From: Eledone cirrhosa
Taxonomy: Eukaryota
Assembly (NCBI GenBank): GCA_964016885.1
Contig: OZ024744.1
Location: 9,858,001 to 9,922,000, forward strand
Length of the DNA: 64,000 nucleotides
Reading direction: 5' to 3'
Positions 1 to 35,247 of the stretch are shown here, in pieces. Position numbers and translations under genes: made by a program. The notes under the pieces are model-generated. The model did not search any database and was not told the origin of the DNA. It saw only the letters and a program-made list of their open reading frames with translations. Position 1 is the stretch's first letter. Each line of letters begins with the position of its first letter.

Positions 1-2556
1 TCACTTTACAGTGTGGGCTGGGTGCTTTTTTGCCATGGCACCTCCACGACCACTTTACAGTGAGTGCTGGGTGCTTTTTTGCCATGGCACCTCCACGACC
101 ACTTTACAGTGAGTGCTGGGTGCTTTTTTGCCATGGCACCTCCACGATCACTTTACAGTGAGTGCTGGGTGCTTTTTTGCCATGGCACCTCCATGATCAC
201 TTTACAGTGTGGGCTTGGTGCTTTTTTGCGTTGGCACCTCCACGATCACTTTACAGTGAGTGCTGGGTGCTTTTTTGCCTTGGCACCTCCACGATCACTT
301 TACAGTGAGTGCTGGGTGCTTTTTTGCCTTGGCACCTCCACGATCACTTTACAGTGAGTGCTGGGTGCTTTTTTGCCATGGCACCTCCACGACCACTTTA
401 CAGTGTGGGCTGGGTTCTTTTTTGCCTTGGCACCTCCACGATCACTTTACGGTGAGTGCTGGGTGCTTTTTTGCCATGGCACCTCCACGATCACTTTACA
501 GTGAGTGCTGGGTGCTTTTTTGCCTTGGCACCTCCACGATCACTTTACAGTGAGTGCTGGGTGCTTTTTTGCCATGGCACCTCCACGATCATTTTACAGT
601 GAGTGCTGGGTGCTTTTTTGCCATGGCACCTCCACGATCACTTTACAGAGTGGGCTGGGTGCTTTTTTGCCTTGGCACCTCCACGATCACTTTACAGTGT
701 GGGCTGGGTGCTTTTTTGCCTTTGCATCTCCACGATCACTTTACAGTGTGGGCTGGGTGCTTTTTTGCCATGGCACCTCCACGATCACTTTACAGAGTGG
801 GCTGGGTGCTTTTTTGCCTTGGCACCTCCACGATCACTTTACAGTGTGGGCTGGGTGCTTTTTTGCCTTGGCATCTCCACGATCACTTTACAGTGTGGGC
901 TGGGTGCTTTTTTGCCTTGGCATCTCCACGATCACTTTACAGTGTGGTCTGGGTGCTTTTTTGTTTTGGCAGCTCCACGATCACTTTACAGTGAGTGCTG
1001 GGTGCTTTTTTGCCGTGGCACCTCCATGATCACTTTACAGTGAGTGCTGGGTGCTTTTTTGCCTTGGCACCTCCACGATCACTTTACAGTGATTGCTGGG
1101 TGCTTTTTGCCTTGGCACCTCCACGATCACTTTACAGTGTGGGCTGGGTTCTTTTTTGCCTTGGCACCTCCACGATCACTTTACAGTGAGTGCTGGGTGC
1201 TTTTTTGCCTTGGCACCTCCACGATCACTTTACAGTGAGTGCTGGGTGCTTTTTTGCCATGGCACCTCCACGACCACTTTACAGTGTGGGCTGGGTTCTT
1301 TTTTGCCTTGGCACCTCCACGATCACTTTACGGTGAGTGCTGGGTGCTTTTTTGCCATGGCACCTCCACGATCACTTTACAGTGAGTGCTGGGTGCTTTT
1401 TTGCCTTGGCACCTCCACGATCACTTTACAGTGAGTGCTGGGTGCTTTTTTGCCATGGCACCTCCACGATCATTTTACAGTGAGTGCTGGGTGCTTTTTT
1501 GCCATGGCACCTCCACGATCACTTTACAGAGTGGGCTGGGTGCTTTTTTGCCTTGGCACCTCCACGATCACTTTACAGTGTGGGCTGGGTGCTTTTTTGC
1601 CTTTGCATCTCCACGATCACTTTACAGTGTGGGCTGGGTGCTTTTTTGCCATGGCACCTCCACGATCACTTTACAGAGTGGGCTGGGTGCTTTTTTGCCT
1701 TGGCACCTCCACGATCACTTTACAGTGTGGGCTGGGTGCTTTTTTGCCTTGGCATCTCCACGATCACTTTACAGTGTGGGCTGGGTGCTTTTTTGCCTTG
1801 GCATCTCCACGATCACTTTACAGTGTGGTCTGGGTGCTTTTTTGTTTTGGCATCTCCACGATCACTTTACAGTGAGTGCTGGGTGCTTTTTTGCCGTGGC
1901 ACCTCCATGATCACTTTACAGTGAGTGCTGGGTGCTTTTTTGCCTTGGCACCTCCACGATCACTTTACAGTGATTGCTGGGTGCTTTTTGCCTTGGCACC
2001 TCCACGATCACTTTACAGTGTGGGCTGGGTTCTTTTTTGCCTTGGCACCTCCACGATCACTTTACAGTGAGTGCTGGGTGCTTTTTTGCCTTGGCACCTC
2101 CATGATCACTTTACAGTGTGGGCTGGGTGCTTTTTTGACTTGGCACCTCCACGATCACTTTACAGTGTGGGCTGGGTGCTTTTTTGCCTTGGCACCTCCA
2201 CGATCACTTTACAGTGAGTGCTGGTTGTTTTTTGCCTTGGCACCTCCACGATCACTTTACAGTGTGGGCTGGGTGCTTTTTTGCCGTGACACCTCCACGA
2301 CCACTTTACAGTGTGGGCTGGGTGCTTTTTTGCCATGGCACCTCCACAAACACTTTACAGTGTGGGCTGGGTGCTTTTTTGCCGTGACACCTCCACGATC
2401 ACTTTACAGTGAGTGCTGGGTGCTTTTTTGCCATGGCACCTCCACGATCACTTTACAGTGTGGACTGGGTGCTTTTTTGCTGTGACACCTCCACGACCAC
2501 TTTACAGTGTGGGCTGGGTGCTTTTTTGCCGTGACACCTCCACGATCACTTTACAG
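1..2556. repeat. 49-bp minisatellite (about 52 units, runs off the left edge) expanded from the body of a CORE-SINE, with an 881-bp higher-order duplication
   Basis: Unit TCACTTTACAGTGAGTGCTGGGTGCTTTTTTGCCATGGCACCTCCACGA. Variant markers recur 881 bp apart (TGGGTTCTTT at 411/1292, GATTGCTGG at 1091/1972). Confidence 0.95.
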
Positions 2557-4074: not shown

Positions 4075-7033
4075 TCATCATCATCATCATCATCATCAAC
4101 GTTTAACGTCCGTGTTCCATGCCTGCATGGGTTTGGACGGGGGTAGTCTCACTTGAGGCAAGAGTGATTATCTTGCTCGCATAGGACTGTCTGGCGGGTT
4201 TTCTACAGCTGGATGCCCTTCCTAACACCAACCACATTTACAGTGTGGGTCTGGGAGGTTTTTACTGTGTTGCCTACACGGCCACATTACAGCGTGGACT
4301 GTCTGGCAGGTTTTCTACAGCTGGATGCCCTTCCTAACACCAACCACATTTACAGTGTGGGACTGGGACGTTTTTACCGTGTTGCCTACACGGCCACATT
4401 ACAGCGTGAACTGTGTGTTTTTTTACGTGACACCTACACGATCTCATTTGTTTCGGCCTGGATGTTGTGGCACCAACATAACTTTACATTGAAAGGGGCG
4501 GTGTGGATGGGGTGGGGGTGGTGGGACGGGGGTGTATTTTGTTAGAGGTGCCTACTGACTGTAGTAGGTTTTACTTTGTATTTAGGTAAGGCGGGTCTTC
4601 TCTATTACTGAGTACCGCCAAAGGTCTCGGTCGGGTGACATTGTCTTGGTGAGGTGTAAGTGTGTGAGGTCGGAATTTATCAGCTCGTCCCAGGTTTTTC
4701 TGGGTCTGCCTATTCCGTGGCTACCGTCTATCTTTATTGCCCTGCACTTTGTTATACAGCTATCGTCCTTCATGCGCATCACGTGACCATACCAACGTAG
4801 CCTTCTCTCGAGTAAACAACATCTGATCCCTCTTATTTCTAATTTTTTCCTTAGTTCGTTTATGCTTTGCCGTTCACGTATATTACTATTACACATCCAG
4901 CGGAGCATGCAAGCTTCGTTTCTCTCTAGTCTGCGTATATCCTCTGCATACAATGCCCAGGTCTCACTGCCATGCAACATTGCTGTTCGTATGCAGGCAT
5001 CGTACAACCTGCCTTTCATTTTTAGGGAGAACCCTTTAGCGGCTAATAGTGGTATAAGCTCTCTGAACTTTTTCCATCCAGTTCTGACTCTAGCTACTGT
5101 ACTTTCAGAGCACCCTCCCCCACTGCTGATTTTGTCACCCAGGTAACGGAAGCTGTCCACTGTTTCTATAGAACCCTCTGCGCAGTTGAAAGAGCTAGTA
5201 TTTTGTGAGCACTTGCTGCTACTTATTGCACCAGAGCACCGGCCACATGTAAAATCTATGTTCTTAGTTAGCTTACCTGTGATCCCACTACATCTTTTAT
5301 GCACCCAAACTTTGCATTTGGGACACAAAATGGAGTTTCTACCTACGCCTTTCCTACACACTGAGCATGGCCACTTCCCGGAAGGGACCGCCGCCTTATT
5401 TTCTTTCTTACAAACTAGAACTTTAGTCTTAGCCAGGTTAATTTTAAGGCCTTTTGATTCTAGGCCGTGCTTCCATGTTTGGAATTTCTTCTCTAGCTCG
5501 GCCATTGATTCAGCTATGAGTGTTGGGTCATCTGCGTATAGGAGTTCCCATGGGCAACCGGTCTTGAACTCCTCTGTTATAGCCTGAAGGGCAATAATAA
5601 ATAGTAGGGGGCTAAGAACAGAGCCCTGATGGACACCAACTTTTACGCTAAACTCTTCACTATATTCGTTGTTAATTCTAACCTTACTGACTGTTTCTTT
5701 ATACATGGCTTGTATAGCTCTCACAAGCCATTCGTCAACACCTAGTTTTCTAAGAGCCCACCAGATAATGGAACGGGGGACTCTGTCGAAGGCTTTCTCC
5801 AAGTCGACAAAAGCTAAGTATAGGGGTTTACTTTTAGCTAGGTACTTCTCCTGTAGTTGTTGTACAATGAAAAGAGCGTCTGTGGTACTTTTGCCTGACA
5901 CAAACCCGAACTGCATTTCATCTAGATCAATTCTCTCTCTGATTAGTTGCGCTATTACTTTTTACGTGACCTTCATGACCTGGTCGATTAATTTAATGCC
6001 TCTATTGTTACTCCTATCTAGGGCATCTCCTTTACCCTCATAACAGTTAACGATGGTGCTTCTACGCCAGTCGTTCGGAACAACCCCATTCTGTACGACT
6101 TGGTTAACTATCCGGGTGACCATGGTGTGTCCCACCGTACCGGATGACTTCAGCATCTCGGCAACTATTTCCGAAGGCCCAGCCGCCTTACCTGTCTTCA
6201 TATCTTTGATTGCCTTACTTATTATACTACCCTCGACTAACACTGCTGGTCCCTCTATTGGGTCGATGTGGGGGAGACTGTCTTTCTCCCATTTATTTCC
6301 TCATTTAGTAGCCTTTCATAGTGACACTTCCAAGCTACCTTCTTATCAGCGTCGGTGATGGCAAGTACGCCGTCATCATTAAGTACACACTTCTCCCCGA
6401 CAATATCACGGTTTTCCTTGACACATTGCCTAGCAATCCTGAACACCTCACGTTTTTGGTCCTCGTGTTGTAGAACATGCTTGAACTTTCTTTCCTCTGC
6501 TTCCCTTCTTGAGAAGTACACTTGTCTCCTAGCTTCCCTCCTGGCCACTTGATAGTCTTCTCTGCTTCCCCCATCCCGCCATACTTTCCAAGCCTGCTTT
6601 TTGGCCTTAATTGACCCCTCCACCTTACTGTTCCACCACCATGTTACTCTCCTCCTGCCTACAGGCCTGCTCCAGCCACAGACTTCGTCTGCCGCCATCA
6701 GCAGGTTTGCCTTCAGGAATTCCCACTGTCCCTCTATATTGTCCGACTCTAAATGCTCTTCCTTACTGTCGAAAGCATCAAGTAATATGCTTTGGAATTT
6801 ATTTCTGGCTGTGGGGTCCTTTAGCCTCCATATTTTTCTCCTGAGGATAGTCCTCTTCTGCTGTCGAGTATGTCTCGTCCTGACTATGAGGTTGCTAATT
6901 ATCAGTCTATGTTGGGAGGTGCATTCTTCATGGGGGAGGGATTTAGTGTTTACAACAGACACTCTGTCGCGTCTTCTGGTAAGGATATAATCTACCTGGC
7001 TTGTGTGTTCCCCGGATCTATAGGTGATCAGGT
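4075..7033 (-). mobile_element. RTE LINE subfamily A, 5'-truncated and frameshifted (partial APE endonuclease + RT + 3' UTR)
   Basis: ORFs 6255-6962, 5962-6243 and 4582-5916 carry QFGF, FVDLEKAFD, GVHQGSVLSP, YADD, FRYLG and RRLRWYGHV; (GAT)n tail at about 4075-4097. Confidence 0.95.
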
Positions 7034-7034
7034 G

Positions 7035-7067
<33 letters not shown>

Positions 7068-7415
7068 TTGTGTATTTGTATATACTTTATATATATATAT
7101 GTGTGTATATGTGTGTGTGTGTGTGCATTAATATATATATATATATATATAGCGGCGATGAATTAGTTTTGCGAGGTTTTTTATATGAAATTGTGTGTCG
7201 AAACAAATATTGTTATACTTGGGGAGGGTCATATTTGTGTAATATTGCCAGAATTAATAACAGAACACACTCACTGTTTGGTTGGTTTTCGCTTCTCGCT
7301 TCTGTGTCTTTTATATCGGTAATCTAACTTACTCGGTCCTCAATGTTGCCATTGACTGACCGACGGTCAAAAATAATACAGATACAATATAGACACAAAC
7401 ACATATATATAGTTT

Positions 7416-7457
7416 ATCAAAGTTCTTTCGTTGCACATCTGCAACATTGTCAGTGGT
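7416..7457 (-). ncRNA. Degenerate minimal type I hammerhead ribozyme in the PLE family 1 pseudo-LTR
   Basis: Minus strand reads ACCA CUGACAA U GUUGCA-GAUG-UGCAAC GAAA GAACUU UGAU; G8 is changed to A. Confidence 0.65.
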
Positions 7458-7701
7458 GTTATCGTTTCCTCCTGTTGTATTATATGTCTACGCCATTTTT
7501 ATTCAGTCTGTCTATATATTTATTTATTTGCTTGTTTGTTTATTTTATTTTGTCTTCTTTGCTCATGCGTTTGCGTGTGTGTATAGTGTTTTGTTTGCTG
7601 TGTGATGGGTGACTAGTGTGTGTTTATGTGCTTGTTGTTATTGTGTTTGTGTATGTATTTATTTATTTATTTATTTATTTTATTTTATTTTATTTACTTA
7701 T

Positions 7702-10587
7702 TTATACTTCTGTTAGGTCAGTGTTGTTTGTTTGGGTGTTGTTGTTATTCCATTCATTCTTTCTGTTTAGTCTTGGCCTTCTAATTTCTATTTCACTGGC
7801 CTCTGATTTGCCTATCTGCTGGGTCATTTCTATGTTTAGATATTATTCTAATTTCTATGTTGTCTATGTTACCGTCATGTTGTTGTCGTATAGTACTGAC
7901 CCGTTTTTTCAGCCTTTTAGTTGCCCCAGTGTTGGTCTATCCTTTCACCTATGCTACGAGCTGTCTCACCTATGTATGTTGTTGTCATGTTTCTGCAAGT
8001 ACCCTCTGTACATCTTATGCTATAGACTACGTTTCTAGTTTTACAGTTTATCCGGGGGTTTACCTTACATATGATACACTTCCTATTGGTACAGTGGGTT
8101 TTCTTAAAAGGGTAGGTTTTGCTGATCAGGGATTTTATGGTGGTTCCTGGCTTTTCTACCACCTTAATTTTTAAGTGGGTCTTTCTCAGGGCCTTTCTAC
8201 ACTGGTTAGCTAATTTCCCTCCGGGGGTAGCGTCCACAAACATGACACTCTGGTATCTCTGGTATCTCTGGTATCTCTGGTTGTCGTACCATGAGGTGGC
8301 TTTCCCTATCTTATGTCTAGCCCTATCTAAGCTATTCCATGATTTGCTCCTGTATAATGGGCAAATTCCTTTCATGTCCAGTTCTATGAGGGTCTTATAC
8401 TTCTCCATGGCTCCTTCGTATACTCTAACTCTGTCTCTTTGGTTGTAGCCAGAGAACTGCATGCGGTTGATGAAGTGTTGGATGTGTCTTTCCATTTCTG
8501 TTGGGTCGCACATGCGGGACACATTCTTCATCACTCGTACCAAATCTGCGATCAGAATATTAAACTTAGCACTACTGGACATTGCTGAGTTTTTGAGTAT
8601 CAGGTATTTGGAGGCCATGGGTTTAGCATAGTGTGAGTGGAGAATTTGGGCTCTCTCGTCTATAGTGTTAATCCAGAGTTCTGTGTCTAATACAGGTAGT
8701 CTATTGTTAGGGTGTTTGGAAGGGAAGTCGATAGTTACAGTTATACTCTGGTGTATGGAATTATCTATCTGCTGGATGCTTTCCATCGTGCTACGTTCTA
8801 AATCAAACTTGTTAGTGCTCTCTAGTGGGGATGTTCTTATAACTATATTGATATCGTCTACATAACGAGAGTACATGATGAGGTCTATGGAGCTCTCATT
8901 AAGGAAATCTTTAAGTCTCCTTTCCCACCATACCATGAAAAGGTTGGCAACATCACCAGCTATGCTGAGGCCAATGGCTGCTCCCTCATTTTGGGTGTAG
9001 ATCTTCTCGTTGAACTTAAATATGTGGCCTTTTAGGGTAGTTTTGATACTAGCCCCTATTGCATGTGCGACCATTTTTCTTACCTGATCATTGTTTTAGG
9101 GGGTCTGTATAGCTTTGGTCCACCCAATCCACCTTCCCATGGGAGTCTTTTTTGCCATTGAGGTTATGGTGGGGGGTCTACCTCTTATAGGTCTACTGGG
9201 GCAGAAACGTCTAAGGTCATGGCTGTCTAGGTAGTCAGTGTCGTAGGTAAGTCTAAGTAGGAGGCCCAGTTCGTCTGTGTCGACTTCGCAGAACTCCACC
9301 TCACTCTCAATGATCATCTCCACACATCTTTTCACAGCAAAATCAATGTTAATGGATGGGTACAGTGACACCACATCCATGCTGCCTATTATGCAGTCGG
9401 ATAGGTTCCTGTTTTTGTTGCACTCACTGATTCTGCTGAGGAGGTCCTCTGTACTGTCACATGCATCTGGGGAATCTTGATTATGGGGCGTATAACCATT
9501 GAGAGGAAGTAGGAGATCCTGTAGTTACTAGCTATATTAGCTCCGCATACGGGTCTTGTTGGTGGTCCTGTTGTCGGGTCGTCGACTGTCTTGTGGTCTT
9601 TGCGGAGCCCATACAAGGGTGGTATGCCATTGTTAGACGCCTGGAAGTTGTTGGCAGTGCGTCTGCTTGGCTTTAGGATGTCAGTCCACATCATCATGTG
9701 AGCATTGAGGATTTTCTCTCTCCCATCGTGTGTTTGTTGTGCAATTTCGCTCGTGTTGGTGATGTGGGGTTGCATAGCCTTGATATAGTTCGGCATGCTA
9801 TCTATTGACATCCTACCAGACTTATCCGTGGGTAGACATACTACCTCACCATCCCTTGTGCGCTGCTTGAGGCTAACCAAGCCTTCTACAGGTTTCCTCC
9901 CAAGTTGTTGGGCCTCTGGTCTGCTCTGTCTCTTAGTATACCTGTCTACTATTTGTCTAATCTTATTTCTAGCTATGGTGAACTGTGCCTCTGTCTCGTC
10001 ATCTATTTGTTGTGGTATGCAAACTCTTTTATTAAAGGGTAACCTCGTAGGATAGATATTACCCATCTTATATGTTTTGTCAGCTGGGTTGAAAAATAGT
10101 TTCTCTAAGGGGTTGTCATTATATCTATCGTCATAGTTGTGTGTGTTGCTATTGTTGTTATCAGGGTGGTTGTTGTTGTTTCTATCATTAGCATTATTAT
10201 TATTGTTATGATTGCTAGATGTATTGTTGTTTACTTCACCGTTATTGTTGTTGTTACTGTTATTTCTACCATTCTGGTTGTTACTTTTATTATGTTTCTT
10301 GTTTTTGTTGTGTCTATCATTGATGTTGCTACATGTACTATTTCCATTATTACCAATGTGGTTATTGTTGTTGTTGTTCGTATTGTTACCGTTATTACTA
10401 CTGTGGTCACTGTTGCTGTGTCTGTGGTTAATGTTTCTATTATTATTATTATTGTGGTTGTTGTTGTTGTTCTGTCTATCGTTAGTATTTTTACCATTAT
10501 TACTATTTCTCACTTTCCTGCTATTGTTATAGTTATGGCTGTTATTTCTATACTCAGAGTTATTGTTTATATTACTACTACCGTTAT
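7702..10587 (-). pseudogene. Disrupted PLE RT/GIY-YIG ORF
   Basis: ORF pieces 9389-10587, 9096-9380 and 7917-9074 are separated by a frameshift and stops; the frame continues to NRKNEWNN...EV* at about 7702. Confidence 0.85.
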
Positions 10588-12258
10588 TAAAGAGCGTCTG
10601 TGGTACTTTTGCCTGACACAAACCCGAACTGCATTTCATCTAGATCAATTCGCTCTCTGATTAGTTGCGCTATTACTTTTTCCGTGACCTTCATGACCTG
10701 GTCGATTAATTTAATGCCTCTATAGTTACTCCTATCTAGGGCGTCTCCTTTACCCTTGTAACAGTTAACGATGATGCTGCTACGCCAGTCCTTCGGAACA
10801 ACCCCATTCTGTATGACTTGGTTTACTATCCGGGTGACCATGGTGTGTCCCACCGTACCAGATGCCTTCAGCATCTCGGCAACTATTTCCGAAGGCCCAG
10901 CCGCCTTACCCGTCTTCATATCTTTGATTGCCTTACTTATTATACTACCCTCGACTAACACTGCTGGTCCCTCTATTGGGTCGATGTGGGGGAGACTGTC
11001 TTTCTCTCATTTATTCTCCTCATTTAGTAGCCTTTCGTAGTGACACTTCCAAGCTACCTTCTTATCAGCATCAGTGAAGGCAAGTACGCCATCATCATTA
11101 AGTACACACTTCTCCCCGACAATATCACGGTTTTCCTTGACACATTGCCTAGCAATCCTGAACACCACACGTTATTGGTCCTCGTGTTGTAGAACATGCT
11201 TGAACTTTCTTTCCTCTGCTTCCCTTCTTGCGAAGTACACTTGTCTTCTAGCTTCCCTCCTGGCCACTTGATAGTCTTCTCTACTTCCCCCATCCCGCCA
11301 TACTTTCCAAGCCTGCTTTTTGGCCTTAATTGACTCCTCCACCTTACTGTTCCACCACCATGTTACTCTCCTCCTGCCTACAGGCCTGCTCCAGCCACAG
11401 ACTTCGTCTGCCGCCATCAGCAGGTTTGCTTTCAGGAATTCCCACTGTTCCTCTATATTGTACGACTCTAATTGCTCTTCCTTACTGTTGAAAGCATCAA
11501 GTAATATGCTTTTAAATTTATTTCTGGCTGTGGGGTCCTTTAGCTTCCATATTTTTCTCCTGAGGATAGACCTCTTCTGCTGTCTAGTACGTCTCGTCCT
11601 GACTATGAAGTCGCTAATTATCAGTCTATGTTGGGAGGTGCATTCTTCATGGGAGAGGGATTTAGTGTTTACAACAGACACTCTGTCACGTCTTCTGGTA
11701 AGGATATAATCTACCTGGCTGGTATGGTCCCCTGATCTGTAGGTGATCAAGTGATTAACTCGTTTTTTGAAGTTAGTGTTACAGATAGTTAGATTATTTG
11801 CATCACAGAATTCCAGGATTCTGGAGCCTTCCTCATTTCTAGTACCAAACCCATAGCCTCCATGGATTCCGTCATAGCCATCATAATGTTGTCCAACGTG
11901 GCCATTTAGGTCGCCAGCAATAATTATATAGTCACTGTCGGTTATTTGGGAGGTAGTGAGCATCAGTGTCTCATAGAATCTGTCTTTTATAGCGCCAGGC
12001 AGTCCGGATTGGGGCGCATACGCAGATATTACTGTCGCAGTAGTTCTATTTAGAACAAGTCTTATTTTAATTATTCTGTCGTTCACTCTATTTACGTCTA
12101 TTATCTTATCCACCCATTTTGCTGCTAACATGATTCCTACCTCACCTATCTCATTGCCATTTCCCACCCAGAAAAGCTTATAGCAACGTTTTTTACTCAC
12201 AATGAATCTAGCAGGCCTGCCCCTCCACCTGGTCTCTTGGATACAACAAACATCTCCG
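10588..12258 (-). mobile_element. RTE LINE subfamily A 5' portion (APE endonuclease to RT start), 3'-truncated at the PLE junction
   Basis: DVCCIQETRW, SAYAPQ, GDLNGHVG and SQVDYIL motifs (ORFs 11172-12275 and 10587-10961). Confidence 0.92.
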
Positions 12259-12380
12259 AGGGTTATAAACCCCACTATCAGGCTAGAAATTTCTTTAGTC
12301 TAAAATACGGTGAAAGCTTATAATTTCTAATTTCTAATATATATATGTGTTTATGTGTATATGTGTGTGTGTTTGTGTGC

Positions 12381-15775: not shown

Positions 15776-16019
15776 TATGTGTGTGTGTGTATATATATAT
15801 ATAAATGTGTGTGTGTGTGCATGTATGTATATATATATATGTGCGCGTGTTTGTGTGCGTATATATATATATGTGTTTGTGTGTGCATGTATATATGTAT
15901 GTGTGTGTGTGTGTTTGTGTGTTCATGTATATATATATATGTGTGTGTTTGTGCATGCGTATATATATATACGTTTGTGTGTGCATGTATATATATATAT
16001 GTGTGCGTGCGTGTATATA

Positions 16020-17092
16020 TCATCATCATCATCACCGTTTTACGTCCGTTCTTCCACGCTTGCATGGGTTAGACGGGTTGTCCTGTTGTGGGCAGTGTCT
16101 GGTCGGCTGACCATGCCTTCCTCATACAGGAACTGATTTGGCTTGATTTCTACAGCTGGATGCCCTTCCTAACACCAACCTCATTTACAGTGAGTACTGG
16201 GTGCTTTTCCGTGGTGCCTACACGTCCACTTTACAGTGTGGGCTGGGTGCTTTTTTGCCGTGGCACCTCCACGACCACCTTGCAGTGGGAGGTGTGGGGG
16301 CATATTGTCTATATGCTTCAGCTTGTACCCATGGGAGGTTGGCTACTCTGTATTACTGCGTGACGCCAGAGGTCACGGTCATCGCCTTTGAGAGGTGTAA
16401 TTGGGTAAGGTCTGCTTTTATCACCTCATCCCAGGTCATCTTGGGTCTCCCCACTCCGTGGTTTCCATCAACTTCTAGTGCTCTGTACCTTTTTATGCAG
16501 CTGTCATCCTTCATACGCATCACATGTCCATACCAACGCAACCGCCTCTCCTGCACACAGCATTTGATTCCTCTTATGCTCAGTCTCTCTCTCAATTCAT
16601 TTATGCTTTGTCATTCACGTATATTACTGTTACACATCCATCGGAGCATGCAGGCTTCGTTTCTCTCTAATCTACATAAGTCTTCCACCTTCAGTGCCCA
16701 GGTCTCACTATCATGTAACATTGCTGTTCGGATACACGCATCATACAGTCTGCCTTTCATTTTGAGGGAGAAGCCTTTTGCAGCTAGCAGTGGCAGTAGT
16801 TCCCTGAACTTCTTCCATCCCGTTCTCACCCTAGTTATTGTAATTTCTGAACACCCACCTCCGCTGCTAATTCGATCACCTAGGTAGCAGAAGCCCTCCC
16901 AGAGATTGGTGGTACTAGTTTCCTGTGGCTGTTTGCTGCTTGCTGTCCCAGTACAGCTGCTGCATGTGAAGCCTACACTCTTAATTAAGCTTCCTGAGAT
17001 CCCGCTACATCTCTTGTGTACCCATTGTTTGTAATTGGGACAGAGAATGGAGTTCCTACCTACACTTTTCCTACATCCTGTGCAAGGCCAAT
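16020..17092 (-). mobile_element. RTE LINE subfamily B 3' fragment
   Basis: RTGWKKFRELLPLL and ERLSIRGIKCCVQERRLRWYGHV motifs, UTR and tail. Confidence 0.88.
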
Positions 17093-17274: not shown

Positions 17275-17618
17275 GGAGGCACATGGCTTAGTGGTTAGAG
17301 CATTGGCCTTGCAATCGAAAGGTTGTGAGTTCAATTCTCAGACCGGGTGATGTGTTGTTTCCTTGAGCAAGACACTTTATTTCACATTGCTCCAGTTTAC
17401 TCAGCTGTAGAAATGAGATGATAGGGACTGGAGTCCCTATCATTCCACTGTAAAGTGGTCGTGGAGGTGCCACGGCAAAAAATCACCCAGCACTCACTGT
17501 AAATGAGGTTGGTGTTAGGAAGGGCATCCAGCTGTAGAAATCAAGCCAGAATCAGTTCCCGTCCCACCCTTGCAAGCAGGGAAAAGCGGACGTAAAATAA
17601 TGATGGTGATGATGATGA
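17275..17618 (+). mobile_element. Full-length tRNA-derived CORE-SINE with an RTE-derived 3' tail
   Basis: A box TGGCTTAGTGG, B box GAGTTCAATTC, CORE-like CCTTGAGCAAGACACTT...CAGCTGTAGAAATG. Tail CCCACCCTTGCAAGCAGGGAAAAGCGGACGTAAAA(TGA)n is identical to the RTE subfamily C end. Confidence 0.9.
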
Positions 17619-28241: not shown

Positions 28242-29660
28242 ATATTTCGTTTCTGAATTTGTTTAGTAAGATTCTTTATCTGAAATCGTGTGTTGAAACC
28301 GATATTGTTATACTTTGGGAGGGTCATGTTGCCAATAAGAAACACACGCACCAGTTGCTTTCACTTCAATTTATTATAATAAATTTATAAATTTAGGAAT
28401 TTATAAATTTCCGGTTGGTTGGTTGGTTCCACAACCAGATGGTTGTTTATATATTGTCAAAGTTCTTTCGTCACACATTCTGTGACCTCTTTAGTGACTG
28501 GGGATTCTTTTCTTTGCTTTTGTGCCTCTCCTTTGTTGTCCTACGCCATCTTGTTTCTGTGTGTGTGCTGTGTGCTCAGTCTGCGCATGCGCCACATCCG
28601 GGTGTCTGTGTGTGTTTATATTTGTTTATTTATTTGTTTATTTACATGTTACAGGTTGGTTGTTTGTTCTATGTGCGTGTGTGTTTTCATTTTGTCCTTA
28701 ATTGTAAGTTGTGATGTTGCTGTTCCACTCATGTTTTCTATTTAATTTTGGTTGTAATTCTTTTATGTTTATTGCCTCTGTGATTTGTCTAAACATTGCG
28801 TCTTTTCTGTGTGTAGATTCTATTTTTATTTCTATGTTCTCTAATTTATGTTCTATTTTAGCATGTTGGTAGAGTACAGATGATTCTTTACTATCTTGAA
28901 GGTCTCGCCAGTGTTCATTTATCCGTTCCCCTACACTACAAGCTGTCTCACCTATGTACACTATATTTTTGTCTCTACATTGTCCTTCAGTACATCTTAT
29001 GCTATATACTACGTTTCTAGTTTTACAGTTAATATGGGGGCTTAATTTACAGGTTATACATTTCTTATCTATACAGGGGGGTCTTTGGAAAGGGTATGTC
29101 TTGCTAATAAGTGTTTTTACGGAGGTACCTGGTCCTTCTACTATCTTAATATTGAGTTTATGTTTATCTAGGGCCCTTCTAAATTTGTAAGCTAATTCAC
29201 CTCTAGGGGTTGTATCGATGAACATTACACTCTGGTATTTATTGCTATCATACCATGAGTTTATTCTATTAGCTTTATTCCTAGTTCTTTCTATTCTATT
29301 CCAAAATTTGCTCCTATACAAGGGGCAGGTCCCATTTGTGTCATTATTTACCATTTTTTCCCATTTGGTTCTGGTTCCTCTATACACTCTGATTTTATCT
29401 CTCTGATTGTAACCAGAGAACTGCATACGGTGGATGAAGTGTTGTATGTGTCTCTCTAGTTCTTCGGGGTTGCACATGCGGGACACGTATCTCATCACCC
29501 GTACCAAATCCGCAATCAGTATGTTGATTTTGGTATGGTCCGAAATAGCTGAGTTTCGGAGGATCAGATATTTGGAAGTCATGGGTTTGGCATAATGGGA
29601 ATGGAGGATTTGTTTTTTGTTATTAATGGTATCTAACCAGAGCTCTGTGTCTAGTACAGG
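28242..29660 (-). mobile_element. Inverted 5'-truncated copy of PLE family 2 (RT C-terminus, GIY-YIG, pseudo-LTR)
   Basis: Reverse complement of about 33012-34369 plus ORF-start sequence; ORF 28698-29582 contains VVYSIRC...YIGETA. Confidence 0.92.
28456..28498 (-). ncRNA. Hammerhead motif in the inverted PLE copy, with a core G5-to-A change
   Basis: GUCA CUAAAGA G GUCACA-GAAUG-UGUGAC GAAA GAACUU UGAC. Confidence 0.65.
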
Positions 29661-30011
29661 GTAAATTAGAGAACATAGAAATAAAAATAGAATCTACACA
29701 CAGAAAAGACGCAATGTTTAGACAAATCACAGAGGCAATAAACATAAAATAATTACAACCAAAATTAAATAGAAAACATAAGTGGAACAGCAACATCACA
29801 ACTTACAATTAAGGACAAAATGAAAACACACATGCACATAGAACAAACAACCAACCTGTAACATGTAAATAAACAAATAAATAAACGAATATAAACACAC
29901 ACAGACAGCCGGATGTGGCGCATGTGCAGACTGAGCACACAACACACACACAGAAACAAGATGGCGTAGGACAACAAAGGAGAGGCACAAAAATAAAGAA
30001 AAGAATCCCCA

Positions 30012-30054
30012 GTCACTGAAGAGGTCACAGAATGTGTGACGAAAGAACTTTGAC
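30012..30054 (+). ncRNA. Minimal type I hammerhead ribozyme, upstream pseudo-LTR
   Basis: GUCA CUGAAGA G GUCACA-GAAUG-UGUGAC GAAA GAACUU^UGAC; predicted cleavage after 30050. Confidence 0.78.
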
Positions 30055-30174
30055 AATATATAAACAACCATCTGGTTGTGGAACCAACCAACCAAAAGGA
30101 AATTTATAAATTTATAAATTTATTATAATAAATTGAAGTGAAAGCAACTGGTGCGTGTGTTTCTTATTGGCAAC

Positions 30175-33100
30175 ATGACCCTCCCAAAGTATAACAATAT
30201 CGGTTTCAACACACGTTTTCAGATAAAGAATCTTGCTAAACAAATTCAGAAACGAAATATCGTAAGCCTTAGCCAGGCTAACAAGATACTGAAAACCACC
30301 ATGTTCTGTTGTCTACGAAAAACAATAACATCTCGACAACTACACTTCATAAAAGAATGTGCCTCGTCCCGAGTTTACACCAACACCATTACCGATGTAA
30401 GAAGATTACAACTCACCAAAAAGCAAGCAGATAGGCTAAAACGAACACTAATTCTAAACATAAAAAAGAAGATCTATAGAGAATTAAGTCATCAAGAAAA
30501 ACATAAGCGTAACCTGATACAAGAAACAACTAAGATCACCACACCAAGAGAAAAACTAATATTTATAAACCTTATACGTCCTGAAGAACAGTACATTGTT
30601 CAAGAATGTGATAAGCACTTTAAAAAGAAAGTAAAGTGGCTTAAACAGATAAAACTAAATCAAGATACTTTAGCGAATACCAATAGATATCCCGACAAAA
30701 TTGACAGTATAAATATGGCCAACATCTCATTAACAGATGAGTTCAACAACAACAACATAAATATATACAGCAACACTATGGTCGACTCTGATGAATTATC
30801 TGTATTACAACTACCACCTAAATATGACACATTCAAGAAGGTAAATATGATTAGTTGTTTGTCAGAAATAGAAAAATCATTTACAAAATTACGTTGGAGC
30901 CTCAAAAACAAAAACAAAAACAAAAGTAACAACATACGCACACACACACACATATACAACACACATCCCAACAACAACAGACACAAACAACAATAACAAC
31001 ACACACAACAATAATAACACACACGGAGACAACAACAACACACATCAACAACAGCACACATCAACAACAACAACAACACACACACACATTCTATGCCTCT
31101 CATCACCACCACAATCTTAACAAACACACAGACACAGAAAACAAGTAATTGCAGTAGCACAGAAATAAGGGAAGGTAATAGGATTGAAAGGAGAAGGGAG
31201 ACTATGGACAGCGAAAATAACCAGGACGAACATACAGACACACAAAATAGAGTAGATAATTGTTTCTACTTTAGGCACAAGGCCAGCAATAAACCAGTGC
31301 ATTACTGGTACTTTATTTTATCGACCCCGTAAGGATGAAAGGCAAAGTCAACCTCGGTGGGATTTGAACTCAGATCGTAAAGGGACGTAACTATGCTGGA
31401 AAGCATGGTGTCCGACCCTCTACCGATACTGCCAATCCACCATCCACCATCAAAATAGAGTAGATAATAAGAATGAGCCAGAGGAAAGGGACAGGAGTAA
31501 TAATGAGAGACATAGAAACAACCATGAGGCTGTTGGTGGAAATAGAAACAACACAACTAACAATAACAATAGCACAAGTACACATAAAGCAGCAGCCTGG
31601 AACACTACTTTTTATAATCCCTCCGATAAGTCGTTCGACCTGCGACGAGTCCACGCCACGACTTTACCTTTTAACAAACGCACGCAATTGCCGTCGCAGG
31701 TCGATGAACAAACAGAAGCAAAATTTAGTATAGCTAGATCTAAACTTAGAAATATTATAGAACAGTATAGCAAGAAGCATAATAGAATGGAGACCCAGCA
31801 ACTGGGAGAAAATTCTGCAAATGGCTTGCGTAAGCTCATGCAGCGCTCGCGTAATGGAGAGATAGCATGCTTTCCAACAGACAAGTCTGGTAGAATGTTG
31901 GTTGACAGTCTGCCAAACTACATCCAGGCAATGCAACCCCACATCACTAACACAAGAGCAGTAACACCACAAGAGCATGAGGATAGAGAAAAAGCCCTCA
32001 ATGCCCATATGGTGATGTGGACAAATATAATGCAGCCCAACAAAAGGACTGCCAACAACTTCCAGGCCTGGAACAATGACGTGCCAGCATTGTATGGGCT
32101 TCGAAAAGACCATAAAACGGGCAGTGACCCTGTCACGGGACCACTAACACGGCCAGTCTGTGGGGCTAACATTGCTAGTAACTACAGACTGTCCTACTTC
32201 CTCTCCCTGATCATACGCCCCGTCATTGAAATGTCCCCAGATGTATGTGACAGCACGGAGGACCTCCTCAGCAGAATCGGCGAGAGTAACCGATCTAGGG
32301 ACCTAACAAACTGCATAATAGGTAGTATGGATGTTGTGTCCCTGTATCCATCTATTGACGTGGATTTTGCTGTGGAGAAATGCGTAGAAATGATCAGTGA
32401 GCAATGTTGAGTTCCGTGGGATTGATACCAATGAGCTGGAACTCCTACTTAAACTTACCTATAGTAATAATTACCTAGACACATATGACCTTAGCAACCT
32501 GTGCTCTACAAGACCAGCAAGAGGCAGACCACCTACCATTACCTCAATGGCCAAGAAAACCCACACAGATAGATGGAACGGGTGGACCAGAGCCATACGG
32601 ACACCCGAAAACCATGATGAACTAAAGAAAATGATCGCACATGCGGTGGGGGCCAGCATAAAATTAACCCTTAAGGAACATATGTTCAAATTTAATGGAA
32701 AAACATATGCCCAAGAGGAAGGAGCAGCCATTGGTGTTAGCATTGCAGGCGACATAGCTAACTTATTCATGGTATGGTGGGACAGTAGACTTAAACTTAA
32801 ACTCAAAGAACAATTAGAAGACCCCTTAACCCTGATAATGCACTCCCGCTACGTTGATGATATAAACATCGTAGTTAAAACACCCCCACAAGAGAACAGT
32901 CAGGATTTAGAGAAAAACACAATGGAAAGCATCCAGCAAATAGCTAACTCCATCCACCAGAGTATTAGAGTTACTATAGACTACCCAAGTAAACACCCCA
33001 ACCATCGATTACCTGTACTAGACACAGAGCTCTGGTTAGATACCATTAATAACAAAAAACAAATCCTCCATTCCCATTATGCCAAACCCATGACTTCCAA

Positions 33101-33973
33101 ATATCTGATCCACCGAAACTCAGCTATTTCAGACCATACCAAAATCAACATACTGATTGCGGATTTGGTACGGGTGATGAGAAACGTGTCCCGCATGTGC
33201 AACCCCGAAGAACTAGAGAGACACATACAACACTTCATCCACCGTATGCAGCTCTCTGGTTACAATCAGAGAGATAAAATCAGAGTGTATAGAGGAACCA
33301 GAACCAAATGGGAAAAATGGTAAATAATGACACAAATGGGACCTGCCCCTTGTATAGGAGCAAATTTTGGAATAGAATAGAAAGAACTAGGAATAAGGCT
33401 AATAGAATAAACTCATGGTATGATAGCAATAAATACCAGAGTGTAATGTTCATCGATACAACCCCTAGAGGTGAATTAGCTTACAAATTTAGAAGGGCCC
33501 TAGATAAACATAAACTCAATATTAAGATAGTAGAAAGACCAGGTACCTCCGTAAAAACAATAATTAGCAAGACATACCCTTTCCAAAGACCCCCCTGTAT
33601 AGATAAGTAATGTATAACCTGTAAATTAAGCCCCCATATTAACTGTAAAACTAGAAACGTAGTATATAGCATAAGATGTACTGAAGGACAATGTAGAGAC
33701 AAAAATATAGTGTACATAGGTGACATAGCTCGTAGTGTAGGGGAACGGATAAATGAACACTGGCGAGACCTTCAAGATAGTAAAGAATCATCTGTACTCT
33801 ACCAACATGCTAAAATAGAACATAAATTAGAGAACATAGAAATAAAAATAGAATCTACACACAGAAAAGACGCAATGTTTAGACAAATCACAGAGGCAAT
33901 AAACATAAAAGAATTACAACCAAAATTAAATAGAAAACATGAGTGGAACAGCAACATCACAACTTACAATTAA
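30175..33973 (+). pseudogene. PLE polyprotein (N-terminal domain, Asn/Thr/His-rich linker, RT, Cys motif, GIY-YIG) with frameshifts, a stop and a SINE insertion
   Basis: MTLPKYNN start, RPVCGAN, GSMDVVSLYPSI, GAAIG, RYVDD, LPVLD, PCIDKxCITC, VVY...YIG and EAINIKELQPKLNRKHEW. Confidence 0.9.
31261..31450 (-). mobile_element. Meta-like tRNA-SINE inserted in the PLE linker
   Basis: Same family as 22378-22578; 18-bp TSD CAAAATAGAGTAGATAAT at 31243-31260 and 31451-31468. Confidence 0.88.
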
Positions 33974-34172
33974 GGACAAAATGAAAACACACACGCACAT
34001 AGAACAAACAACCAACCTGTAACATGTAAATAAACAAATAAATAAACGAATATAAACACACACAGACACCCGGATGTGGCGCATGCGCAGACTGAGCACA
34101 CAACACACACACAGAAACAAGATGGCGTAGGACAACAAAGGAGAGGCACAAAAGCAAAGAAAAGAATCCCCA

Positions 34173-34215
34173 GTCACTGAAGAGGTCACAGAATGTGTGA
34201 CGAAAGAACTTTGAC
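34173..34215 (+). ncRNA. Minimal type I hammerhead ribozyme, downstream pseudo-LTR
   Basis: Identical to 30012-30054; predicted cleavage after 34211. Confidence 0.78.
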
Positions 34216-34394
34216 AATATATAAACAACCATCTGGTTGTGGAACCAACCAACCAACCGGAAATTTATAAATTCCTAAATTTATAAATTTATTATAATAA
34301 ATTGAAGTGAAAGCAACTGGTGCGTGTGTTTCTTATTGGCAACATGACTCTCCCAAAGTATAACAATATATATAGAATATATATATATAATATA

Positions 34395-35247
34395 TCTATA
34401 TATCTAAAACAGAGAATGTCTGTCTGTCTCCCTAAATCTCGAGAACCACCCAACGGATTTTTTTCAAACTTTACACATGTAATACTTATTGTCGTGTGAG
34501 TGTTTTGAACAACAAATATTTCAAATTTTCAATGCCTTAGGGACCGCATTAGGCGAAAAACTGCATATTTTAGGCTTTAAAGGCTTTTTTAGGCATAACG
34601 GAACAATAACCACGCGATTTCTTCAAAATTTGCATTACTTATGTCGTTCAAAGTGTTTTGAGCAAAAAAGATTTTTTCATTTTTTGCCCCAATGACCGCA
34701 TTAGGCAAAAAAACGATTTTTTGAAGCATTTTGGTTGTGTTAGTACTCGAGAAGTACCCAACCAATTTGTTTTTAACTTTGCATATAGATTACTTATGTT
34801 TCACAAATTTTCTTGACTGAAAAAGATTTCAAATATTTTCCCGGGGACCACATTGTTTAGTATTTTGGTTGCGTTAGGGCCTGTATGTAACTTAAAAAGT
34901 ATCCAACTAAATTCCTTCATGCTCTCCACCACTGCAGTCCCACATGCTTACTGCTCTGTAACTATTGCTTTCATTGTACCATAGCACAACAAATACATGT
35001 TCTGTTTGTCGAATGCCTTTTTACTTAACTCTATCGTCTTGGCTTTCATGGGTTGAACATTTTACTCTCAGGCCCCCAAGTAAGTTAAACCCCTGGTAAT
35101 CTACGACAAATTTTTTTTATAAGCACAAAATGTAGACACCATTCCCAGGTTGAGATATTCTATACTTCTCTGTACTGTTTCAGAAAGGAGGGATAAACAT
35201 GCCAATCTATGTTTAGAATCCTGAGCAACGCCGGGCCATTCTGCTAG
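34395..35247 (+). mobile_element. Non-autonomous Helitron
   Basis: 5' TCTATATATCTAAAAC...; 3' CCTGAGCAACGCCGGGCCATTCTGCTAG; sits between A and T. Confidence 0.78.

What the first reader, a model, noticed from the sequence alone, without database searches (positions are those of the whole stretch)
7416..7457. Helix II covariation of the hammerhead between two diverged PLE families
The UTRs of families 1 and 2 are otherwise not alignable by eye, yet both keep CUGAnxA-N-helix II-GAAAGAACUUUGA. Helix II is GUUGCA/UGCAAC here and GUCACA/UGUGAC in family 2, i.e. two compensatory base-pair changes, which is sequence evidence of selection on RNA structure. CUGACAA could be CpG decay of CUGACGA (inference).
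Basis: partly seen in the sequence, partly recalled or inferred. Interest (0 to 1): 0.72.

Follow-up and report, generated by a model that had tools for sequence, protein, structure and literature searches.

The report
Dead Penelope hammerhead copy, helix covaries
This is one decayed copy of the small hammerhead RNA motif that Penelope-like jumping genes carry in their terminal repeats, a kind already described in 2014. Its second helix differs from a sister family by two matched base-pair swaps that were likely reached through G-U wobble intermediates still present in this genome.

Summary
On the minus strand at 7416-7457 lies ACCA-CUGACAA-U-GUUGCA-GAUG-UGCAAC-GAAAGAACUU|UGAU. A second family (30012-30054, 34173-34215, 28456-28498) has GUCA-CUGAAGA-G-GUCACA-GAAUG-UGUGAC-GAAAGAACUU|UGAC. 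Helix II differs by two double (compensatory) changes.

It is the known "minimal hammerhead" of Penelope-like elements (Cervera and De la Pena 2014): unpaired base after A9, G10.1-C11.1, 6-bp helix II, 4-bp helix I, almost no helix III, sited in the terminal repeats. Rfam models do not detect it.

98 of 100 listed family-1 copies have G8, and CUGACAA makes up about 100 of 10,519 copies, so the A8 here is a minority change at a CpG.

The prediction of a restored helix I is not met. A C.A mismatch at 2.3/1.3 is in all 119 family-1-type copies I read.

The ORF the motif seemed to precede is a LINE. The Penelope ORFs lie upstream on the minus strand, so the motif is in the 3' repeat.

New here: all four helix II changes are transitions at one self-complementary CpG step. 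Wobble intermediates (51 copies) outnumber mismatch intermediates (8) on the same stretch of genome. That favours selection on pairing, though mutation bias is not fully excluded.

Self-cleavage is untested.

The parts
7416..7457 (-). Family-1 minimal hammerhead motif, from helix I to helix I. It carries A instead of G at core position 8 (base 7448). The predicted cleavage site lies between 7420 and 7419.
   Evidence: G8 is present in 98 of 100 listed family copies.
7430..7445 (-). Helix II hairpin GUUGCA-GAUG-UGCAAC, 6 bp. The unpaired U at 7446 precedes it.
   Evidence: It is in the minimum-energy fold, -7.7 kcal/mol.
7488..7496 (-). AUGGCGUAG box, shared with family 2, 34 nt upstream of C3.
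   Evidence: Exact in 78 and with one mismatch in 28 of 127 family-1-type copies.
7150..10588 (-). Family-1 Penelope-like element copy; the limits are approximate. It has no upstream repeat with a second hammerhead, so it is likely 5'-truncated.
   Evidence: Similarity to other genomic copies starts near 7150. LINE sequence resumes at 10589. No second motif was found.
7917..9095 (-). Family-1 Penelope ORF piece: the later part of the reverse transcriptase and the start of the GIY-YIG endonuclease.
   Evidence: 71% identical to family 2 at 32394-33323 and 64% to 28698-29693. Weak RVT_1 hit.
9389..10639 (-). Family-1 Penelope ORF piece: the N-terminal part and early reverse transcriptase. The stop-to-stop frame runs about 50 nt into the flanking LINE.
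   Evidence: 62% identical to family 2 at 31391-32410.
30012..30054 (+). Family-2 minimal hammerhead with an intact core, in the upstream terminal repeat. The predicted cleavage site lies between 30050 and 30051.
34173..34215 (+). Family-2 minimal hammerhead with an intact core, in the downstream terminal repeat, 4,161 nt after the first.
28456..28498 (-). Family-2 hammerhead in the inverted copy. Its core is broken: CUAAAGA, G5 changed to A.
29662..34429 (+). Family-2 element: one 4,161-nt unit plus a repeated end. The pseudo-LTR spans 29662-30260 and recurs at 33823-34429.
   Evidence: Direct repeats D1 and D2. ORF pieces at 30142-30996, 31391-32410, 32394-33323 and 33611-33973.
28242..29660 (-). 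Inverted, 5'-truncated family-2 copy abutting the upstream repeat. It includes the GIY-YIG ORF piece at 28698-29693.
   Evidence: Inverted repeats I1-I4, 97-99% complementary. GIY-YIG hit at E 0.0015.

Best explanation
The stretch is a mutated genomic copy of the minimal type-I hammerhead motif that Penelope-like retroelements carry in their terminal repeats. This copy is predicted to be catalytically dead, because core base G8 has become A.

**Shown**
- The motif sits on the sense strand, about 460 nt downstream of the last reverse-transcriptase/GIY-YIG ORF piece.
- In the full family-2 element it occurs once in each terminal repeat, 4,161 nt apart.
- The core boxes, the unpaired base after A9, G10.1-C11.1 and a 6-bp helix II are kept in two sister families whose proteins are 62-71% identical.
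- The motif is present in more than 24,000 places in this genome.

**Inferred**
- Transcripts that run from one repeat to the next would be cut after U17, at 30050|30051 and 34211|34212 in family 2. This would yield a unit-length RNA with 5'-OH and cyclic-phosphate ends for reverse transcription.
- Helix III is only A-U plus G-C around two bases, so two motifs would have to pair (AGAACU with AGAACU, or AGAUUU with AGAUUU) to form the active fold. This follows the published proposal for this class.

**Likely route of the helix II change**
- The change from GUCACA/UGUGAC to GUUGCA/UGCAAC likely ran GUCACA/UGUGAC, then GUCGCA/UGUGAC, then GUCGCA/UGCGAC, then GUUGCA/UGCGAC, then GUUGCA/UGCAAC.
- Every step on this route is a transition, and every intermediate is still paired, twice by G-U.
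- This points to selection on the sense-strand RNA hairpin.
For: **Anatomy and coordinates:**

**Penelope context**
- RVT_1 and GIY-YIG hits.
- 62-71% protein identity between the families.
- Terminal repeats and an inverted truncated copy.

**Agreement with the published class** (PMC4209133, parts 1-2 of 4 read)
- That paper describes a long helix II, a helix I of 4-5 bp, an unpaired nucleotide between A9 and 10.1, and a conserved G10.1-C11.1.

**Abundance**
- 14,001 matches to the CTGANGA...GAAAGAACTTTGA pattern, against 1 for the control.
- 10,519 family-1 cores.
- These two counts overlap only in the 2,727 family-1 GAACUUUGA copies, so at least 21,793 distinct places.

**G8:** present in 98 of 100 listed copies. 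CUGACAA occurs 100 times.

**Intermediates, counted on one stretch of genome (C1 plus C2 to 394 Mb)**
- G-U intermediates: GUCGCA/UGUGAC 27 and GUUGCA/UGCGAC 24.
- A.C intermediates: GUCACA/UGCGAC 3 and GUCGCA/UGCAAC 5.
- Fully paired GUCGCA/UGCGAC: 10.
- The intermediates carry the old-type flank: 10 of 15 class c copies and 7 of 7 class d copies.

**Mutation-asymmetry control:** in flanking columns of the same old copies, A-to-G is 2.69% against T-to-C 2.02%, a ratio of 1.33. General strand asymmetry therefore does not explain 51 against 8.

**Pair counts:** on 11 rows that I picked as representatives, helix II is 100% paired with 2 doubly changed pairs, and helix I pair 2.4-1.4 is A-U against G-C.

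**Folding:** the helix II hairpin is in every minimum-energy fold. In family 2 and the oldest family-1 subtype the whole junction is predicted.
Against: - No Rfam hammerhead model matches, at gathering score or at E up to 10 on 121-nt cuts.
- Cleavage was not tested here. The published class cuts poorly in vitro even as dimers (PMC4209133).
- Penelope relatives without hammerheads multiply well (PMC8557442, passages).
- Helix I is weak in family 1: a C.A or C.U mismatch at 2.3/1.3 in all 119 copies read. It is absent from the minimum-energy fold of the window copy and of the GAUUUA subtype.
- A dimer through helix III is not the predicted minimum-energy dimer.
- In the family-2 context, wobble (28) and mismatch (33) single changes are equal, so dead copies show no bias there.
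- A family-2 subtype with a G.G mismatch in helix II (GGUGACA...UGUGAC) recurs often, some copies in paired inverted insertions, so it likely spread.
- Counts are copies, not independent events, and the order of states is inferred.
- I tallied the listed rows by eye.
- The rows were chosen by me and leave out the mismatch classes.
Confidence: 0.8

Rival explanations
1. The matched changes in helix II are a by-product of mutation bias, not of selection on structure. The stem holds a self-complementary CpG step (GUCGCA/UGCGAC). Methyl-CpG decay gives TG or CA on each strand, and two of the four double products are the Watson-Crick forms seen in families 1 and 2. A-to-G RNA editing written back by reverse transcription would likewise produce the G-U classes.
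For: - All four differences are transitions at or into one CpG step.
- CpG observed/expected in the window is 0.57, against 0.94 for GpC.
- Under free decay, each lineage has a 1 in 2 chance of ending Watson-Crick, so two lineages give 1 in 4.
- In the family-2 context, wobble 28 and mismatch 33 are equal.
- The two wobble classes are both A-to-G on the sense strand if read from the abundant forms.
Against: - Free decay predicts equal numbers of the four double products. Instead the two paired forms number about 680 copies (84 of the first 100 of 815) and thousands, while on the shared stretch GUUGCA/UGUGAC is seen 8 times and GUCACA/UGCAAC 4 times in the same sequence context.
- Single-step TG products (51) exceed CA products (8).
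- The A-to-G excess in flanking columns of the same copies is only 1.33-fold.
- Editing would be expected to act on the same A in family 2 as well, where no excess is seen.
Confidence: 0.12
2. The conserved hairpin and boxes serve something other than self-cleavage, for instance recognition of the 3' end of the RNA by the element's reverse transcriptase. On this reading the hammerhead-like core is kept by that role or by descent.
For: - The class has low activity in vitro (PMC4209133).
- Hammerhead-free Penelope clades proliferate, and the function of the motif is called unclear (PMC8557442).
- Family-1 subtypes with a weak helix I are abundant in this genome.
- The motif lies in the 3' UTR, where such recognition elements usually sit.
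Against: - The conserved letters are exactly the hammerhead core: C3-A9, G12-A14, A15.1-U16.1 and a non-G at 17, with the spacing of the published Penelope class.
- The same motif stands in both terminal repeats.
- Penelope elements of plants, fungi and protists carry more canonical hammerheads; of these a fungal one was assayed and cleaved as a single ribozyme (PMC4209133).
Confidence: 0.07
3. A chance resemblance: an ordinary hairpin flanked by short words that happen to look like a hammerhead core.
For: No Rfam hit.
Against: - Descriptor hits in shuffles average 0.035 per window, against 2 intact plus 2 singly mutated observed.
- 14,001 genomic matches against 1 for the reversed control.
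- The motif is always in the same place relative to Penelope ORFs.
Confidence: 0.01

Closest known systems
Minimal hammerhead ribozymes (min-HHR) of metazoan Penelope-like elements (Cervera and De la Pena 2014, PMC4209133; parts 1-2 of 4 read: abstract, results, discussion, start of methods)
   Same: - Type-I order of strands.
- CUGANGA and GAAA boxes.
- An unpaired base between A9 and 10.1, and G10.1-C11.1.
- Helix II longer than canonical (6 bp) and helix I of about 4 bp.
- Helix III reduced to 15.1-16.1 and 15.2-16.2 around two bases.
- One motif in each terminal repeat, with nearby copies on opposite strands.
[quoted passage not shown]
   Different: - These particular families come from a genome that the parts of that paper I read do not name.
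- The loop-3 bases AA of AGAACU are not palindromic. One family-1 subtype has AGAUUU, which is self-complementary only with G-U.
- Family 1 carries a fixed mismatch in helix I.
- The step-by-step series of helix II states within one genome is not described in the parts I read.
Small hammerhead variants of Penelope-like elements that cleave as dimers (Lunse, Weinberg and Breaker, RNA Biol 2017)
   Same: By its title, and by how PMC6765202 cites it, it concerns Penelope-associated hammerheads with a very short stem III that are thought to act as dimers.
   Different: The paper itself is not held. I saw only its citation and one paragraph about it in PMC6765202, so I could not compare sequences.
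Canonical type-I hammerhead (Rfam hammerhead families)
   Same: The same catalytic core letters and the same order of helices I, II and III.
   Different: There is no stable helix III, an extra base follows A9, and helix II is longer. No Rfam family matches at gathering score or at E up to 10.
Metazoan non-LTR retrozymes (Cervera and De la Pena 2020, PMC7229834, search listing only; Li et al. 2026 preprint 10.64898/2026.07.22.740005, abstract only)
   Same: Hammerhead-bearing repeats linked to the terminal repeats of Penelope-like elements and thought to be mobilised by them.
   Different: Those are short non-coding tandem units. Here the motif sits in the coding elements themselves.

Membership tests
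Penelope-like element minimal hammerhead (min-HHR) | Hammerhead core: C3 U4 G5 A6 N7 G8 A9, G12 A13 A14, A15.1-U16.1, and a non-G at 17. | tested here: not met
   The window copy at 7416-7457 has A8 facing C3, without the U3-A8 covariation that PMC4209133 mentions. The feature is met in the family majority (G8 in 98 of 100), in the 53 copies of the window's own subtype, and in the two family-2 copies at 30012 and 34173. The copy at 28456-28498 has A5.
Penelope-like element minimal hammerhead (min-HHR) | An unpaired nucleotide between A9 and 10.1, and a G10.1-C11.1 closing pair. | tested here: met
   U (family 1) or G (family 2) before the G...C pair. One old subtype has G10.1-U11.1.
Penelope-like element minimal hammerhead (min-HHR) | Helix II longer than the canonical 4 bp (6-8 bp), maintained by compensatory changes. 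| tested here: met
   6 bp, with two pairs changed on both sides. All cells are paired in the 11 rows I picked. Wobble intermediates number 51 against 8 mismatch intermediates.
Penelope-like element minimal hammerhead (min-HHR) | Short helix I of 4-5 bp. | tested here: inconclusive
   Family 2 has GUCA/UGAC, 4 bp. Family 1 has ACCA/UGAU, 3 of 4, with C.A at 2.3/1.3 in all 119 copies read. The oldest subtype adds a 5-bp outer stem AUAGU/ACUAU, which is lost in later subtypes.
Penelope-like element minimal hammerhead (min-HHR) | Minimal helix III with complementary 15.2-16.2, and a palindromic loop 3 where one is present. | tested here: inconclusive
   G15.2-C16.2 is present (G-U in the GAUUUA subtype). 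The loop AA of AGAACU is not palindromic. AGAUUU is self-complementary only with G-U. A dimer through helix III is not the minimum-energy dimer.
Penelope-like element minimal hammerhead (min-HHR) | Location in the terminal repeats of an element that encodes a reverse transcriptase and a GIY-YIG endonuclease. | tested here: met
   The family-1 copy keeps only the 3' repeat.
Penelope-like element minimal hammerhead (min-HHR) | Self-cleavage, as a dimer. | not testable with these tools
   No RNA run was listed for this genome. A bench assay is needed.
Rfam hammerhead families (canonical type I/III and others) | Score at or above the family's gathering threshold. | tested here: not met
   No hammerhead match in the whole window at gathering score, nor at E up to 10 on 7380-7500 and 29980-30100.

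The most novel reading that the evidence does not exclude
This genome keeps a near-complete fossil series of a four-step compensatory walk in a ribozyme helix. Pair 4 goes A-U, G-U, G-C; pair 3 then goes C-G, U-G, U-A. Every paired or wobble state survives as a multi-copy subfamily, while the mismatch states stay at the level expected from decay. If so, helix II of the minimal Penelope hammerhead is under selection on the sense-strand RNA in vivo, even though the class barely cuts in vitro. Retroelement subfamilies could then serve as a natural record of how RNA stems cross fitness valleys.
Probability: 0.4. Interest if true: 0.45.

Novelty: new member of a known kind. Interest (0 to 1): 0.27.

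Why it matters
As found, it is ordinary. Hammerheads in the terminal repeats of Penelope-like elements, and compensatory changes among their families, were published in 2014.

The check still has value in three ways:
- It corrects the annotation. The motif is on the minus strand in the 3' repeat, and the neighbouring ORF is a LINE.
- It shows that a two-sequence covariation argument can be inflated when the changed pairs form a CpG step.
- It offers a sharper test, wobble against mismatch intermediates among thousands of copies. That test points to real selection on the hairpin in a ribozyme class whose activity in cells is still unproven.

Tried and rejected
- **Rfam.** The whole-window scan at E up to 10 gave only sub-threshold microRNA-like hits on TA/TG repeats among the 150 listed rows; 9 more rows were not shown.
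- **RNA evidence.** No RNA holder is listed for the family-2 element. The 5 rows are Logan contigs of unknown kind. Read laying was not used, because contigs cannot show RNA ends.
- **Private conversion.** I first took the three clustered differences between the window copy and its 29 nearest relatives (GAACUU against GAUUUA) for a private conversion from family 2. I rejected this: 2,727 family-1 copies have GAACUU, and the window's exact subtype exists 53 times with G8.
- **Further helix II types.** I asked for a purine at stem position 3. That gave 264 matches, almost all uncompensated decay products and no new paired family.
- **ORF assignment.** I took the ORFs at 4582-7127 (minus strand) for the family-1 Penelope ORF. 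I rejected this: they show no similarity to family 2, are 68% identical to another LINE-type RT at 38406-39791, and match RVT_1 plus a PHD-like finger.
- **Gapped alignment for mutation spectra.** The 260-nt flank alignment was too indel-ridden (423 columns). I replaced it with ungapped columns next to the motif.
- **Earlier notes of this scan.** Searches by place, by words and by sequence found nothing on this window or these two motifs.

Full report
**What is at the coordinates.** The motif reads on the minus strand. I checked each part letter by letter:
- ACCA, 7457-7454
- CUGACAA, 7453-7447
- an unpaired U, 7446
- GUUGCA, 7445-7440
- loop GAUG, 7439-7436
- UGCAAC, 7435-7430
- GAA, 7429-7427
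- AGAACU, 7426-7421
- U, 7420
- UGAU, 7419-7416

In hammerhead numbering these are helix I, C3-A9, helix II, G12-A14, a two-pair helix III, position 17, then helix I again. Position 8 is A where the core needs G.

The second family reads GUCA CUGAAGA G GUCACA GAAUG UGUGAC GAA AGAACU U UGAC at 30012-30054 and at 34173-34215. An inverted copy at 28456-28498 has CUAAAGA.

**More than chance.**
- A simple descriptor finds the two intact family-2 sites and, with one core letter relaxed, the two broken ones. In 200 shuffles of the window the mean is 0.035 and the maximum 1.
- In the window's own genome (3.0 Gb), CTGANGA-N15-21-GAAAGAACTTTGA occurs 14,001 times, against 1 for the reversed control.
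- The family-1 core with free letters at positions 6-9 occurs 10,519 times, against 0 for the control.

**What the element is.**
- The ORFs just downstream on the minus strand (4582-7127) are not the Penelope gene. They match RVT_1 plus a PHD-like finger.
- They show no similarity to family 2.
- They are 68% identical to another such ORF at 38406-39791, and an AP-endonuclease piece lies at 11172-12299. This is a LINE.
- The Penelope ORF pieces of family 1 lie upstream on the minus strand, at 9389-10639 and 7917-9095. They are 62%, 71% and 64% identical to the family-2 pieces, including the start of the GIY-YIG domain.
- Similarity to other genomic copies of family 1 begins near 7150, and LINE sequence resumes at 10589.
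- The motif therefore lies in the 3' untranslated repeat of a roughly 3.4-kb copy that is likely 5'-truncated.

Family 2 shows the classic Penelope layout:
- a 4,161-nt unit
- a repeated end at 29662-30260 and 33823-34429, with one motif in each
- an inverted 5'-truncated copy at 28242-29660 abutting it

**What is known.** I read parts 1-2 of 4 (abstract, results, discussion, start of methods) of Cervera and De la Pena 2014 (PMC4209133). It describes exactly this:
- "min-HHRs" in both terminal repeats of metazoan Penelope-like elements
- a helix II longer than usual and a helix I of 4-5 bp
- palindromic 15.2-16.2
- a proposed dimeric active form, with low activity in vitro

A review (PMC6765202; passages) says the same and cites Lunse et al. 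2017, which I could not read. Craig et al. 2021 (PMC8557442; passages) note that the function of the motif is still unclear and that Penelope clades without it multiply well.

Rfam's hammerhead models do not detect these motifs. That fits the missing helix III. The kind is therefore known, and these families are further members.

*G8.*
- All 29 copies nearest to the window copy have G8.
- Of the first 100 places of the family-1 pattern, 81 read ACGA, 13 AUGA, 2 AUAA, and 1 each GCGA, ACGC, ACGG and ACGU. That puts G8 in 98 of 100 (tallied by eye).
- CUGACAA occurs 100 times genome-wide, the window copy among them.
- The window's own subtype (flank AUAACACCA with GAACUU) exists 53 times with G8.
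- The change is CG to CA, and CpG observed/expected in the window is 0.57, against 0.94 for GpC.
- This prediction is met.

*Helix I.*
- The majority does not restore it. All 119 family-1-type copies I read keep C at 2.3, facing A (UGAU) or U (UGUUAG, UGUAAAC) at 1.3.
- The oldest subtype (flank AUAGUACCA, then UGAUAGACUAU) can add a 5-bp outer stem. Its whole junction appears in the minimum-energy fold.
- Later and more numerous subtypes lose that stem. Their folds show helix II only.
- Between families, pair 2.4-1.4 does covary: A-U against G-C.
- This prediction is not met.

**How strong is the covariation.**
- Taken naively, two matched changes among six pairs have odds of about 1 in 135 (my arithmetic).
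- But the four changed letters form one self-complementary CpG step. A stem GUCGCA/UGCGAC decays by CpG transitions to TG or CA on each strand.
- Of the four double products, two are exactly family 1 (TG, CA) and family 2 (CA, TG). Free decay alone gives a paired result half the time.
- I therefore looked for the other states in the genome.

An 815-copy group has family-1-type flanks, the unpaired U and a 4-nt loop. Of its first 100 listed places:
- 84 carry GUCACA/UGUGAY
- 12 carry GUCGCA/UGUGAY
- 4 carry GUCGCA/UGCGAC
- none carries GUCACA/UGCGAC

Their flanks are of the old family-1 type.

Two mirror-image patterns then counted all wobble-type and all mismatch-type combinations: 385 and 237 matches. 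The table gives counts on the stretch of genome covered by both lists (contig 1 plus contig 2 to 394 Mb; 100 and 57 rows, tallied by eye).

| State | Sequence context | Pairing | Copies |
|---|---|---|---|
| GUCGCA/UGUGAC | unpaired U, 4-nt loop | G-U at pair 4 | 27 |
| GUUGCA/UGCGAC | unpaired U, 4-nt loop | U-G at pair 3 | 24 |
| GUCACA/UGCGAC | unpaired U, 4-nt loop | A.C mismatch | 3 |
| GUCGCA/UGCAAC | unpaired U, 4-nt loop | C.A mismatch | 5 |
| GUCGCA/UGCGAC | unpaired U, 4-nt loop | fully paired | 10 |
| GUUGCA/UGUGAC | unpaired U, 4-nt loop | double wobble | 8 |
| GUUGCA/UGUGAC | family 2 | double wobble | 3 |
| GUCACA/UGCAAC | both contexts | double mismatch | 6 |
| GUCGCA/UGUGAC | family 2 | wobble | 28 |
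| GUCACA/UGCGAC | family 2 | mismatch | 33 |

Fetching 15 of the 24 U-G copies showed 10 with the old-type flank. All 7 fetched GUCGCA/UGCGAC copies have it as well.

In ungapped columns beside the motif of 42 old-type copies, A-to-G is 2.69% and T-to-C 2.02% per site. General strand asymmetry (1.33-fold) therefore cannot give 51 against 8.

By my rough arithmetic, using those rates and the parent copy numbers, the mismatch classes sit at the level expected from decay and the wobble classes about four to five times above it.

**Reading.** The most economical account is a walk within the family-1 lineage: GUCACA/UGUGAC, GUCGCA/UGUGAC, GUCGCA/UGCGAC, GUUGCA/UGCGAC, GUUGCA/UGCAAC. The starting state is shared with family 2.
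- Every state on this walk is paired, and each survives as a multi-copy class.
- Because G-U on this strand would be C.A on the other, the constraint is on the sense strand, that is on the RNA.
- The order of states is inferred.
- Counts are copies rather than events.
- The 11 rows were picked by me and leave out the mismatch classes.

**Against this reading.**
- Family 2 shows no wobble excess among its decayed copies.
- A family-2 subtype with a G.G mismatch in helix II recurs often, some copies in paired inverted insertions, so it likely spread.
That could feed A-to-G changes into new copies.

**How it most likely works.**

*Shown:*
- position, strand, core, helices and copy numbers
- the two-repeat layout

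*Inferred from the published model:*
- A transcript spanning two repeats is cut after position 17 in each. For family 2 that is 30050|30051 and 34211|34212, which gives a 4,161-nt unit.
- Two motifs pair through their helix III halves to form the active fold.

AGAACU pairs with itself at four of six positions. The AGAUUU of a 1,582-copy family-1 subtype pairs at all six if G-U is allowed. Neither dimer is the predicted minimum-energy dimer.

The window's family-1 copy is predicted to be inactive (C3 facing A8). It lies in a copy whose reading frame is in at least two pieces, so it is a fossil.

**Verdict.**
- It is a known kind.
- The added value is the corrected context, the CpG caveat, and the contrast between wobble and mismatch intermediates.

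Noticed in passing
window 7488-7496 (-), 29961-29969 (+), 34122-34130 (+): A box AUGGCGUAG, often preceded by AAG or AAA, is shared by both families, 34 or 46 nt upstream of the hammerhead. It is exact in 78 and one-off in 28 of 127 family-1-type copies. From memory it resembles a YY1-type site (AAGATGGCG) of the kind that fixes the transcription start in some retroelements. That resemblance was not tested.
   Followed up: partly
window 5871-7034 and 10589-11753: A 1,165-nt direct repeat of LINE sequence (95.9% identical) brackets the family-1 Penelope copy and a TA/TG microsatellite. Whether it is two LINE copies or a long duplication made at insertion is open.
   Followed up: partly
window 4582-5961 (-), 38406-39791 (-), 11172-12299 (-): LINE-type ORFs. 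Two copies with a reverse transcriptase followed by a PHD-like zinc finger are 68% identical to each other. An AP-endonuclease piece is also present.
   Followed up: partly
window 1-2500: A tandem array of a 49-bp unit: about 50 copies, 91-97% alike, with a more diverged stretch near 900-1300.
   Followed up: no
G000 contig 1, e.g. 13257196, 29362625, 100003624/100004095, 348783535/348784507: A family-2 subtype with C changed to G at helix II position 3 (a G.G mismatch) recurs many times, often as nearby inverted pairs. A broken helix II therefore did not stop its spread, or these are duplications.
   Followed up: no
G000 contig 1, 14381871-14394342; loci L132, L133: Family-1 motifs spaced 4,145-4,147 nt apart on one strand point to a tandem array of full-length elements. 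This subtype reads GAAAGAUUUAUGUAAAC, with a one-base deletion in the 3' strand of helix I and an A-run upstream of the AUGGCGUAG box.
   Followed up: partly
window 17284-17341 (+), 21845-21902 (+), 60572-60629 (+), 23934-23997 (-): tRNA-model matches just below Rfam's gathering score (26-28.5 bits against 29). Two have identical scores, so these may be tRNA-derived SINE copies.
   Followed up: no
window, many sites (e.g. 48139-48209, 53654-53860, 15829-16023): Dozens of sub-threshold matches to the mir-297, mir-466 and mir-3149 models fall on TA/TG microsatellite-like sequence. They look like low-complexity noise.
   Followed up: no
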